Positions 9,001-12,000 of a DNA stretch of 38,947 bases are shown piece after piece; the stretch's first letter is position 1; each line of letters starts with the position of its first letter. This DNA is from Thermodesulfobacteriota bacterium (lineage in GTDB: Bacteria > Desulfobacterota > Desulfobulbia > Desulfobulbales > SURF-16). Position numbers: made by a program. Location: contig JBDLIE010000025.1 in the NCBI GenBank assembly GCA_039715015.1, positions 1 to 38,947 on the forward strand, read 5' to 3'.

Positions 9001-12000
9001 TCATTAATCTTTGCCTGGACCAGAGATTCTTTGTTGATGCCCTGGGACTTGGCCTCTTGAGCCAGCACAGAAAAATCGGCCCAGCGACTCAGCATGCTTT
9101 GCTGCAGTTCGGGCTGGCTGTCCATCATGGCCTTGAGCTGGGGAGGCATGCTCACCAGCATCAGGTTAAATTCTGCCTGGGTTAGGGTATCTGCCCCGGC
9201 AGTTACCAGAACCTTGGAATCTTCCTCGGCCACGGCAAAACCCGTGGATAAAAATAAGAGGCCACAGAGAAGGGGGAGGATTGTTTTTTTCTGCATACAC
9301 TTAGCTCCTGTTTTTTTTTAAGTAAAACAACGTGTTTTGCTAATAAGGCTTAATCGACAAAGATACAAGTTAGCCCCGAATGATGGTGCAGGCCTTGTGG
9401 AGGCCTGACGGGGCTGTGGTATTTGGCAGCACCATAGAGCGTGGGCCAATTAGGGTGCCGGGGTTGGTCACCGAGTTGCAGCCGGTCTGGACATTATCGC
9501 CCAGGATGGCACCGAATTTTCGCAGGCCTGAGTCCAGAGAGCCGTCGGGGGTCTTGACCTGAACATTGCCGCTGGTAAAACGGAGGTTGGCCAGCTTAGT
9601 CCCAGCCCCCAGGTTGGCATTGTTGCCGAGGATGGAATCACCCAGATAGGCAAAGTGGCCGGCCTTGGCATCATCCAAAAAAATGGAATGCTTGACCTCG
9701 GTGACATGGCCAACCACGCAGCGTTTGCCAAAGAGGCAGTAGCCTCGGACATACGCACCCTGGCGGATCACGGTCTGGTCATCAACGAAAGTCGGTGACG
9801 AGATCATGGCGCCAGGCTCGATGAGCACGCCCCTGCCTATCTTTATCTGGTTGCCTAAAAAAGAGGCTCCCGCCATTATTACCGAGGCACCTTCCAAGGT
9901 CTTGCCCTCTCTGGTCACCTTGAGCAGCCCTTTAGGGGCATCGCCAAAATCAATTTCCACTTCATCGCCGTTGAATACATCAGCTTCGTGAAGGACAATG
10001 GTCCTTGTTAAAGGTTCGCCATTTTTTGGAAAAATTTTACTGTAGTCAGGATAGCTCACGCCATCCATATATGATTTGAGGCGGTTGAGACCTTGCCAGA
10101 CATGATCTGTGTTCATGAAGAGATCAGCAAAAGAGCAGTCGCTAAGATCTAAAAAAGAGGCGCAGGTGAGCATGATTTAGGTTCGTGGGGTATGGTTTGT
10201 GTTGGGATTTTGTCTCATAACTACAAAAAATGCATATATATCATGGTGCAAAATCCATATTTCTTCAAGGGAATTATAGTGGTTTTACGGGAAAAAACAG
10301 CTGTTTATCCGAACAGGACATTCTCCCATCAAGCCGTGTTTCTCTTCCTTGACTTCGTCTGCTCCAATGTTTACGTTTATACGACTTTATTCCCCGACCC
10401 CTTTGCATGTTCGCGCCCTTTTGGGCGACTCTCCTGCCCATGGGAGCGGGATACCTGATGCTTTCTCTGCCTTCTTGCTGAAGGCTGTTATCTTTTTTGG
10501 AGGTTTTTGTGGATATAAACGATCCCCTTACTGCCGGGATAGGCGATCTGGCAGAAATTGACGAGCCCGATATCCCTGAGCAGCTGCCGGTCATGGCAGT
10601 ACGCGATATTGTCGTTTTTAATTATATGATTATCCCGCTTTTTGTGGGGCGTTCCGCCTCCGTGGAAGCGGTCCAAGAGGCCTTGGCCAGAGATAAGCTG
10701 CTCATGCTTGTCACCCAGAAGGATTCGGCTATAGATGAACCAGCTGCCGATGATGTCTACCAGGTGGGAATGGTCTGCATGATCATGCGGACCCTGAAGC
10801 TGCCTGATGGTCGTCTCAAGGTTCTTGTGCAGGCCATTCAAAAGGCTGAGGTTAAAGAGTTTACCCAAACAGACCCTTTCTTTGAGGCCGATATCAACGT
10901 CATTGAAAACCCAGATGAGGTGATCATGACTGTTGAGATCGAGGCCCTCATGCGTAATGTCCGGGAGCAGACCGAAAAAATCCTCTCCCTGAAAGGTGTT
11001 ATGTCCTCGGAGCTGCTTGCCATTTTAAACGGCATTGAGGAGCCGGGTCGTCTCGCTGATCTGGTTGTCTCCAATCTGCGCCTTAAGACCCAGGAGTCAC
11101 AAATCGTTCTTGAGACCTTTGATCCTGTGGATCGTCTTCATAAGGTCTTGGAATATCTTAACAAAGAGCTTGAAGTTTCCACCATGCAGGCCAAGATCCA
11201 GTCTGAGGCCAAGGAGGAGATGGGCCGCACCCAGCGCGAATATTATCTGCGCGAACAGATCCAGGCCATGAAGAAAGAGCTTGGTGAATATGACGAAAAA
11301 TCCCAGGAAATTGAAGAACTCCAGGCCCGCTTCAAGAAGGAGCGCATGCCCTCCATTGTCAAGAAGGAGGGAGAAAAGCAGCTCAAGCGCCTGGAGATGA
11401 TGCATCCAGACGCCTCGGAGGCCGCCACCATCAGGACCTATCTCGATTGGCTCCTTGATGTGCCCTGGCGCAAATCCACCAAGGACCGGCTGGACCTGAA
11501 GATCGCCAAGAAGGTTCTTGATGAGGACCATTACGGTCTCGACAAGATTAAGGAACGCATCCTTGAGTATCTGGCCGTTCGTAAGCTTAACAAGTCCACC
11601 AAGGGTCCCATTCTCTGCTTTGTCGGCCCCCCAGGTGTGGGTAAGACCTCTTTGGGTAAATCCATCGCCCGGGCCATGGGGCGTAAATTCTCTCGTTTTT
11701 CCTTGGGTGGCATGCGTGATGAAGCAGAGATTCGCGGTCATCGTCGTACCTATGTTGGTGCCATGCCGGGCCGGATTATCCAGGGCCTGAAGACAGTGGG
11801 CTCAAATAACCCGATCTTCATGCTTGATGAAATCGACAAGGTGGGCGCCGACTATCGTGGCGATCCCTCATCCGCTCTTCTTGAGGTTCTTGATCCTGAG
11901 CAGAATTCTGAGTTCTCCGATCATTATCTCAACCTGCCCTGTGATCTGTCCAAGGTGATGTTTATCACCACCGCCAATATGAGCCATACCATCCCTGGGC

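What a model noticed while it worked through the whole genome (the two positions that open the first line are those of the whole stretch)
9370..10173. GlmU has lost its acetyltransferase end order-wide; a stand-alone archaeal-type acetyltransferase stands in
GlmU (g02085, C38:22036-23082, 348 aa) stops before the acetyltransferase active site. g01701 here, unannotated and mostly near mltG, is a lone beta-helix domain with the GlmU acetyltransferase motif (AGHFAYLGD..LGAGT) of archaeal type. Together they rebuild UDP-GlcNAc synthesis as two proteins.
Evidence so far: GlmU match ends by profile position 346 of 452 in 22 of 22 order genomes with a hit (23 searched, call 193); g01701 present in 23 of 23. 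Outside the order, 3 of 3 genomes with full-length GlmU lack it; of two with short GlmU one has it. Best family Arch_glmU C-terminal part, E 3e-44, against 1e-14 for bacterial GlmU.
(Added by a program. Inside this text positions count along the whole contig: contig position 1 is position 1 of the stretch shown here. "Call 12" and the like, gene names such as g00115 and contig names such as C1 are that model's own, and its searches are not shown. The text may have been shortened before it was handed on; [...] marks where a part breaks off. The agent that wrote the report below was given it as the finding of a first reader that could run no searches.)

Follow-up and report, generated by a model that had tools for sequence, protein, structure and literature searches.

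The report
Replacement acetyltransferase for a shortened GlmU
These sulfur-cycle bacteria have lost half of the essential two-part cell-wall enzyme GlmU and appear to use a separate enzyme of the archaeal type instead; relatives that lack this enzyme carry a second, undescribed substitute, so this step looks like a swappable part.

Summary
Confirmed and extended. Window 9370-10173(-) encodes a 267-aa beta-helix protein closest to the acetyltransferase half of archaeal GlmU ST0452, with its key His, Tyr and Asn in register. The genome's only GlmU ends at 348 aa, before that site. In 61 order genomes all 57 GlmU hits are truncated; 58 carry the full stand-alone gene ('type A'), and the two without any copy lack its locus in the assembly. 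The loss is not confined to the order. Of 201 phylum genomes, 119 keep the bacterial domain (type A in 2). Of the 82 without it, 50 have type A and 29 have a second ~410-aa protein ('type B'), usually just upstream of glmM; none has both, 3 have neither. Type A lies directly upstream of glmM in 3 genomes and occurs with a UAP1-like enzyme in 4. It is a displacement, not a fission, and its nearest kin are other bacterial stand-alones, not archaea. Separately encoded GlmU halves were noted in other taxa in a 2026 preprint. No assay was found.

The parts
9370..10173 (-). Type A stand-alone glucosamine-1-phosphate N-acetyltransferase candidate, 267 aa (P0001)
   Evidence: present full length in 58 of 61 order genomes
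9418..9858 (-). Left-handed beta-helix matching Arch_glmU positions 245-391 (residues 106-252)
   Evidence: ST0452 239-387 E 3.4e-24
9586..9747 (-). Active-site segment R143, E159, K161, H173, Y176, N187, N196; H173/Y176/N196 align with ST0452 H308/Y311/N331
   Evidence: counted on the alignment; R143 invariant and E159, K161, H173, Y176, N196 at least 90% conserved in 116 relatives; roles of the ST0452 residues from passages of review PMC4909775
9859..10173 (-). N-terminal part: helix 27-37 (probable remnant of the GlmU linker arm, inferred) and a beta-rich stretch absent from the 205-245 aa relatives; no nucleotidyltransferase domain
10497..12881 (+). lon, divergently transcribed constant neighbour in the order
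   Evidence: Pfam; 49 of 49 loci over 10 kb, 73 of all 80
12883..13950 (+). mltG (YceG family), second neighbour; in locus L071 the short glmU follows mltG directly
8439..9296 (-). PpiC-type rotamase downstream on the same strand; also beside type A in 8 of 23 loci from outside the order

Best explanation
UDP-GlcNAc is made here by GlmS, GlmM and two separate enzymes instead of bifunctional GlmU. The window protein (type A), probably as a homotrimer of beta-helices, transfers acetyl from acetyl-CoA to glucosamine-1-phosphate, with His173 as the catalytic residue and Arg143/Lys161/Tyr176 binding the phosphate. [quoted passage not shown] Historically this is non-orthologous displacement: an enzyme of the archaeal-GlmU sequence family, taken from a pool of bacterial stand-alones, made the native C-terminal domain dispensable, which then eroded. 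Shown: truncation, residue conservation, fold, distribution, gene neighbourhood. Inferred: activity, trimer, residue roles, order of events.
For: Best family, best solved sequence and best fold are all the acetyltransferase half of archaeal GlmU (model pLDDT 97.9). Active-site residues lie in the same spacing as in bacterial and haloarchaeal GlmU. G000 has canonical glmM, glmS and murA and no other GlmU-type acetyltransferase motif, no type B, no PF01704 protein. Short GlmU carries the fingerprint L-X2-G-X-G-T-X-M-X4-P-K (against PMC10087520 section 16) and ends about where the E. coli Tr331 construct, uridyltransferase only, was cut (PMC4358021 passages). Phylum: type A in 2 of 119 genomes with the bacterial domain and 50 of 82 without; types A and B overlap in 0 genomes against 17.7 expected; 192 of 201 hold exactly one solution. 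Type A 4-20 bases upstream of glmM in G070, G110, G088. Four type-A genomes with no GlmU hit at 1e-50 hold a PF01704 protein; the one examined is UAP1-like. Intermediates: G070 GlmU has lost just the His/Tyr/Asn segment; G254 GlmU is truncated and decayed while its 5 family relatives have full GlmU and no type A. In 28 order GlmUs the stub is less conserved than the N-domain (39% against 56%), while in 11 full-length ones the two are alike (47% and 49%).
Against: No enzyme assay or genetics was found. In the order the gene is not linked to glm genes (lon and mltG instead); glmM adjacency is 3 of 24 loci examined and comes from 2 families. Two genomes keep both an intact GlmU and type A (G195, G208), and a third (G126, left out of the type A count) has full GlmU plus a shorter relative beside bshB1. 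A Bacillus relative sits in an aminocyclitol cluster, so the family can take other substrates. Three genomes have no solution (G091, G179, G235; 90-98% complete, fragmented). Genomes are kin, so the Fisher value overstates. G000 holds six GNAT-family proteins, two without a clear name.
Confidence: 0.85

Rival explanations
1. The protein acetylates something else (another amino-sugar or aminocyclitol phosphate), and amino-sugar acetylation is done by an unrecognised enzyme such as a GNAT acting on GlcN-6-P as in eukaryotes.
For: A relative lies in an aminocyclitol cluster and one beside bshB1; ST0452 also acts on GalN-1-P; G000 has six GNATs; no glm linkage in the order.
Against: Does not explain 2 of 119 against 50 of 82, the exclusion by type B, or glmM adjacency. 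The two unnamed GNATs tested had one weak hit each in 5 order genomes and no GNA1-labelled hit for the one searched against the PDB. Three other GNATs were not tested across genomes (RimI, an amino-acid N-acetyltransferase type, one more), nor the 628-aa fusion.
Confidence: 0.08
2. Same chemistry, but the two proteins re-form a complex: the beta-helix stub kept by most order GlmUs docks on or co-assembles with type A.
For: 49 of 57 order GlmUs keep about 70-100 residues of linker and beta-helix.
Against: 8 of 57 order GlmUs and many outside the order end at 244-258 aa with no stub yet keep type A; type A also goes with a UAP1-like partner; the stub is drifting.
Confidence: 0.05
3. Simple fission: the window gene is the host's own GlmU C-terminal half, detached and diverged.
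For: True bacterial-type C-halves exist as separate genes in family f23, 6 of 6 sampled.
Against: Arch_glmU scores 151.6 bits against 54.1 for GlmU; bacterial C-halves, f23 included, are cut off from all type A rows by a branch of support 100 (quick tree); the short GlmU still holds the start of its own beta-helix.
Confidence: 0.01
4. Assembly or gene-calling artefact (frameshifts, contig ends) makes GlmU look short.
For: Most genomes are MAGs; single cases are contig breaks (G238, G058).
Against: Real stop codons in 28 order loci of 320-344 aa and 8 of 244-258 aa, in single-contig genomes (G014, G019) and in 5 of 5 named genomes.
Confidence: 0.01

Closest known systems
Archaeal bifunctional GlmU ST0452 of Sulfolobus tokodaii (PDB 2GGO, 5Z09; TIGR03992)
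   Same: Beta-helix acetyltransferase half, E 3.4e-24; His308/Tyr311/Asn331 kept as H173/Y176/N196; top Foldseek hit, TM up to 0.62 by query length.
   Different: No nucleotidyltransferase domain (151.6 bits, cut-off 292.1); own N-terminal region; bacterial host; GalN-1-P activity unknown.
Bacterial bifunctional GlmU (TIGR01173)
   Same: Same proposed reactions and order; the short GlmU is its direct descendant (338 bits); active-site spacing shared.
   Different: Two genes at unlinked loci; the acetyltransferase is not the native C-half.
Truncated and separately encoded GlmU domains in NagU-bearing bacteria (bioRxiv 10.64898/2026.06.23.733835, section 15 and legends read)
   Same: C-terminal-only proteins in PVC bacteria proposed to work with NagU; Wujia chipingensis encodes both halves apart; an unidentified acetyltransferase is postulated for N-only species.
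   Different: Survey limited to species with NagU; no occurrence of 'Desulfo', 'Thermodesulfobacteriota' or 'archaeal' in the main text; no assay of the C-only proteins in the passages read; no mutual exclusion of types. Supplements could not be seen.
Monofunctional uridyltransferase GlmU(Cc) of Capnocytophaga canimorsus (PMC4358021, passages)
   Same: Natural GlmU with uridyltransferase only; its Fig. S4 legend lists genera with LbH-only orthologues.
   Different: That organism lacks glmM and is a GlcNAc auxotroph; G000 has glmS, glmM and a substitute.
Stand-alone 205-245 aa relatives in Clostridia, Bacteroidota, Verrucomicrobiota, Dictyoglomus and others
   Same: Same family and motif; Clostridium tagluense and Vescimonas copies are annotated 'UDP-N-acetylglucosamine pyrophosphorylase'.
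   Different: Shorter N-terminal part; their annotation names the wrong half-reaction (inference from missing domain); partner GlmU state not tested here.

Membership tests
Arch_glmU (TIGR03992) | Full-length bifunctional protein over the curated cut-off | tested here: not met
   151.6 bits against 292.1; profile 245-391 of 393 only
Arch_glmU (TIGR03992) | C-terminal beta-helix of the archaeal rather than the bacterial sequence type | tested here: met
Glucosamine-1-phosphate N-acetyltransferase (EC 2.3.1.157) | Catalytic His with Tyr and Asn in register | tested here: met
   H173/Y176/N196 = ST0452 H308/Y311/N331; at least 90% conserved
Glucosamine-1-phosphate N-acetyltransferase (EC 2.3.1.157) | Phosphate-binding Arg and Lys of the beta-helix | tested here: met
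   R143 invariant, K161 at least 90%, same spacing as bacterial GlmU; their role is recalled (E. coli R333, K351), from no call
Glucosamine-1-phosphate N-acetyltransferase (EC 2.3.1.157) | Homotrimer with active sites between subunits | not tested
Glucosamine-1-phosphate N-acetyltransferase (EC 2.3.1.157) | Acetyl-CoA-dependent activity on GlcN-1-P | not testable with these tools
   Needs an assay
Bifunctional bacterial GlmU (TIGR01173), for the C38 protein | C-terminal acetyltransferase site | tested here: not met
   Match ends at 325-326 of 452, below cut-off; none of three site motifs in 28 of 28 order GlmUs
Monofunctional GlcNAc-1-P uridyltransferase, for the C38 protein | Pyrophosphorylase fingerprint and whole N-domain | tested here: met
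Split GlmU by fission | C-half descends from the host lineage's own GlmU | tested here: not met
Direct transfer from archaea | Nests among or is sister to archaeal bifunctional enzymes | tested here: inconclusive
   Nearest rows are bacterial or unlabelled stand-alones; only 2 named archaeal rows, quick tree, midpoint root

The most novel reading that the evidence does not exclude
Glucosamine-1-phosphate acetylation, the step held to be fixed in bifunctional GlmU, is a freely swappable module: one phylum uses four mutually exclusive solutions (fused GlmU, detached native C-half, archaeal-type type A, and type B). Type B, a ~410-aa glmM-linked protein with no Pfam family over cut-off, a helical extension and no His at the canonical position, would be an undescribed acetyltransferase with a rebuilt active site, in some lineages working beside a ~1,250-aa GlmS-like protein; type A may in addition bring ST0452-like GalN-1-P acetylation into bacteria.
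Probability: 0.55. Interest if true: 0.7.

Novelty: new variant of a known kind. Interest (0 to 1): 0.52.

Why it matters
GlmU is treated as a universal, essential bifunctional enzyme and drug target, and annotation pipelines call these genomes either complete or broken at this step. The finding gives a concrete enzyme for the missing step in a whole order that includes cable bacteria (Ca. Electronema), points to a probable misannotation of a large stand-alone family (4,516 proteins at E<=1e-20 among 8,000 candidates scored, some of them full-length forms), and names a second candidate (type B) for the kind of 'unidentified acetyltransferase' postulated in the 2026 NagU preprint, though type B was not sought in that paper's species. 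Both are testable by one E. coli complementation and one colorimetric assay. It does not change chemistry known from GlmU, and split halves have been noticed elsewhere, which limits the score.

Tried and rejected
Trimer prediction: tool not available, no verdict. RNA runs: none listed, no evidence either way. Promoter and terminator scan: at chance level. Search for longer fusions of type A (469-2000 aa): 1 hit among 1,867 candidates, a 611-aa protein from a mussel assembly with a mechanosensitive-channel domain, taken as a probable chimera or contaminant (weak test). Cluster look-up gave almost no names. Type B model: core 118-220 below pLDDT 50, Foldseek no hit at E<=0.001, top rows GlmU: not used as proof of fold. 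A1 against A3 profile: only 35 columns aligned. Careful tree did not finish; the quick tree is reported, 5 rows dropped for lacking the anchor motif (3 representatives, the Bacillus and the G126 protein), type B not included. Assembly artefact and simple fission rejected (see rivals). The idea that short-GlmU genomes without type A refute the reading was dropped after type B was found. Papers not held: PMC6011181 and PMID 25567746, so ST0452 residue roles come from a review and E. coli residue numbers are recalled. Literature searches that found no report of this case; the library lacks most subscription journals, and bioRxiv supplements of the NagU preprint could not be seen and may list these taxa.

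Full report
Observation. The window holds an ORF at 9370-10173 on the minus strand, 267 aa, between a PpiC-type rotamase and a divergent lon-mltG pair. Its best NCBIfam match is the C-terminal part of archaeal GlmU (TIGR03992 245-391, E 2.7e-44), ahead of TIGR03991 (1.8e-27) and bacterial GlmU (1.1e-14), all below cut-off. The best solved relative by sequence and by fold is ST0452 of Sulfolobus tokodaii (E 3.4e-24; Foldseek ranks 1-7) on a model of pLDDT 97.9. Titles of the closest named records place the genome in the Desulfobulbales. The genome is 99.99% complete; its single GlmU (C38:22036-23082) is 348 aa, ends at a stop and matches TIGR01173 only to position 326 of 452.

Active site. Counting along the alignment, H173, Y176 and N196 fall on ST0452 H308, Y311 and N331. 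A review passage (PMC4909775) reports H308 as essential for GlcN-1-P and GalN-1-P acetylation and Y311 and N331 as important for GalN-1-P only; the primary paper was not held. In 116 relatives R143 is invariant and E159, K161, H173, Y176 and N196 are at least 90% conserved, in the same spacing as in bacterial and haloarchaeal GlmU. That the Arg and Lys bind the sugar phosphate is recalled. The short GlmU keeps the pyrophosphorylase fingerprint given in PMC10087520 (section 16) and stops about where the engineered E. coli Tr331 form, uridyltransferase only, was cut (PMC4358021 passages). G000 has canonical glmM, glmS and murA, so it needs an amino-sugar acetylation step, and the window gene is the only one of 11,454 frames with the motif searched.

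The order. Of 61 genomes, 57 have a GlmU hit at E<=1e-50 and all end by position 351; 8 end at 234-245; 4 have no hit at 1e-20. Stops are real: 28 of 30 fetched loci gave closed proteins of 320-344 aa from the motif with none of three active-site motifs (one ran off its contig, one was not parsed), and the 8 shortest close at 244-258 aa. Five of five named genomes, among them Ca. Electronema sp. JC, are short too. The stand-alone gene (type A) is full length in 58 of 61, partial near a contig end in G021 and not found in G023 and G035. In G035 the orthologous lon is cut at the contig start; G023 lacks both that lon and mltG, so the locus is unassembled in both. The stub of beta-helix is less conserved than the N-domain in the order (39% against 56%) but not in 11 full-length GlmUs (47% and 49%), as expected of a decaying remnant.

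The phylum. In 201 genomes (7 of the order), 110 have full-length GlmU, 3 have it broken by contig ends or partial but with the C-half present, and 6 (family f23) have a separate bacterial-type C-half: 119 with the bacterial domain. Type A occurs in 2 of these and in 50 of the other 82. One further genome, G126, has full GlmU and a shorter, more distant relative beside bshB1; I left it out of the type A count. At first 32 genomes seemed to have neither, and a 116-sequence profile found no type A-like protein in them, which weighed against the reading. Looking beside glmM in 26 of them showed a ~405-427 aa protein within about 450 bases upstream of glmM in 20 and directly upstream of a giant GlmS-like gene in 3. 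This type B is a distant relative of the bacterial GlmU C-half (TIGR01173 239-447, E 3e-14) with a long helical extension, has no Pfam match over cut-off and forms an Atlas cluster of 635. A profile from 16 such proteins found 33 of 201 phylum genomes and 0 of 61 order genomes. Among the 82, 50 have A, 29 have B, none both (17.7 expected), 3 neither; 4 genomes have full GlmU plus B; 192 of 201 have exactly one solution. The 16 training genomes were chosen for lacking A, but none of the 17 further B genomes has A either. Kinship inflates any test; within-family contrasts point the same way: f56 (5 full GlmU without A, 1 decayed GlmU with A), f22 (4 full, 2 short with B), f16 (1 full, 3 short with B), f44 (1 A, 2 B), f29 (4 A, 1 B, 1 neither), f55 (4 A without GlmU, 1 full GlmU with B).

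Context and partners. Type A lies 4-20 bases upstream of glmM in G070, G110 and G088, 3 of 24 loci examined, from two families. In the order it sits head to head with lon (49 of 49 loci over 10 kb), which says nothing on function. Of 17 type A genomes with no GlmU hit at 1e-50, the four of f55 have a PF01704 protein (4 of 37 genomes searched), and the one examined is UAP1-like (E 3e-95); several others have a divergent 260-300 aa nucleotidyltransferase; the partner in f40 was not found. Intermediates exist: G195 and G208 hold intact GlmU and type A; G070 GlmU (378 aa) has lost just the His/Tyr/Asn segment and its congener G110 ends at 270 aa; G254 is truncated with decayed motifs. This fits gain first, loss later (inferred).

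Origin. In a quick maximum-likelihood tree of 84 rows (careful search unfinished, 5 rows dropped) the 14 order rows form one group (SH-aLRT 92), all Desulfobacterota type A rows lie in one group (87) within a radiation of shorter stand-alones, and all of these, with the two haloarchaeal enzymes, are split from 8 bacterial GlmU C-halves (100). So this is displacement, not fission, and 'archaeal' describes the sequence type; direct transfer from archaea is not shown. Relatives of 205-245 aa are widespread, with named cases in Clostridium, Vescimonas and Persicobacter. One Bacillus relative lies in an aminocyclitol cluster, a caution on substrate.

Mechanism. Most likely GlmS and GlmM give GlcN-1-P; type A, as a beta-helix trimer, acetylates it with acetyl-CoA; short GlmU adds UMP. 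Truncation, residues, fold, distribution and neighbourhood are shown; activity, trimer and history are inferred (0.85). The main rival, another substrate with a GNAT doing the job, is weak: the two unnamed GNATs tested had one weak hit each in 5 order genomes.

Prior knowledge and verdict. A June 2026 preprint (10.64898/2026.06.23.733835; section 15, legends and passages read) reports C-only GlmU in PVC bacteria, both halves apart in Wujia chipingensis and an unidentified acetyltransferase for N-only species; it has no mention of these taxa or of an archaeal type in the main text, and its supplements were closed. A monofunctional uridyltransferase is known from Capnocytophaga, and the Atlas already auto-names the type A cluster a GlcN-1-P acetyltransferase. 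Ten searches found no account of this order, of the displacement or of type B; most subscription journals are not covered. Verdict: real, well supported by comparative evidence, a new variant of a known kind; the mutual exclusion of four solutions and type B are the newest parts. Interest 0.52.

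Noticed in passing
L250:2879-4120(-) (G251) and 32 other phylum genomes: Type B: ~410-aa GlmU-C-half-like protein with helical extension, upstream of glmM in 20 of 26 genomes checked; keeps the Arg and Lys but, on the PDB alignment, not the canonical His; invariant H119, C141-D142-C143, H154, E156, H163. Candidate second acetyltransferase.
   Followed up: partly
L287:475-4260(+) (G248), L288-L296: Giant GlmS-like ORFs of about 1,160-1,290 aa (GATase and SIS parts, long N- and C-terminal additions, no Cys at the first positions of the called ORF) are the only GlmS hit at 1e-60 in 10 of 29 genomes searched, all with type B; in 3 directly downstream of type B.
   Followed up: partly
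G099, G098, G163, G251, G164; L250:474-1433(-), L248:471-1436(-): Five genomes have no GlmS hit at 1e-60. In G251 (and in G243, which has GlmS) the gene after glmM looks like glucosamine-6-phosphate deaminase NagB (recalled motif, not scanned), which might supply GlcN-6-P in reverse.
   Followed up: no
L165:1468-2283(+) (G068), family f23: True detached bacterial GlmU C-half, upstream of glmS, in 6 of 6 sampled genomes; no N-half at 1e-18 in the 3 checked and no PF01704 protein, so their uridyltransferase is unidentified.
   Followed up: partly
L226:1393-2298, L229:1549-2397, L230:1486-2325, L231:1465-2331, L181:1486-2259: A divergent 260-300 aa nucleotidyltransferase family (28% to G000 GlmU), three times directly behind an mltG-like gene, in genomes with type A or B and no normal GlmU; candidate monofunctional uridyltransferase.
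   Followed up: partly
family f40 (G085, G122, G152, G182, G211, G240): Small, near-complete genomes with type A but no GlmU N-half (5 of 6 without a hit at 1e-20) and no PF01704 protein: uridyltransferase unexplained.
   Followed up: partly
L212:5980-6732 (NZ_CP007513.1): Type A relative in a Bacillus plasmid cluster with sedoheptulose 7-phosphate cyclase, ROK kinase and aminotransferase: probably an aminocyclitol-phosphate acetyltransferase.
   Followed up: no
L182:1474-2193(-) (G126): 240-aa relative beside bacillithiol deacetylase bshB1 in a genome with full GlmU.
   Followed up: no
G011:C12 and C62; G186 GlmU (L307): G011 has two type A copies. G186, with full GlmU and type B, shows changes in conserved GlmU acetyltransferase motifs, perhaps early decay.
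   Followed up: no
window 140-1930(+): Multiheme cytochrome c with a MopE-like metal-binding motif at the N-terminus.
   Followed up: no
window 6797-7894(-), 8003-8302(+), 25114-26079(+), 35498-36349(-), 37134-38606(-): ORFs with no Pfam match; the first two recur near type A in 27 and 18 of 80 related loci.
   Followed up: no
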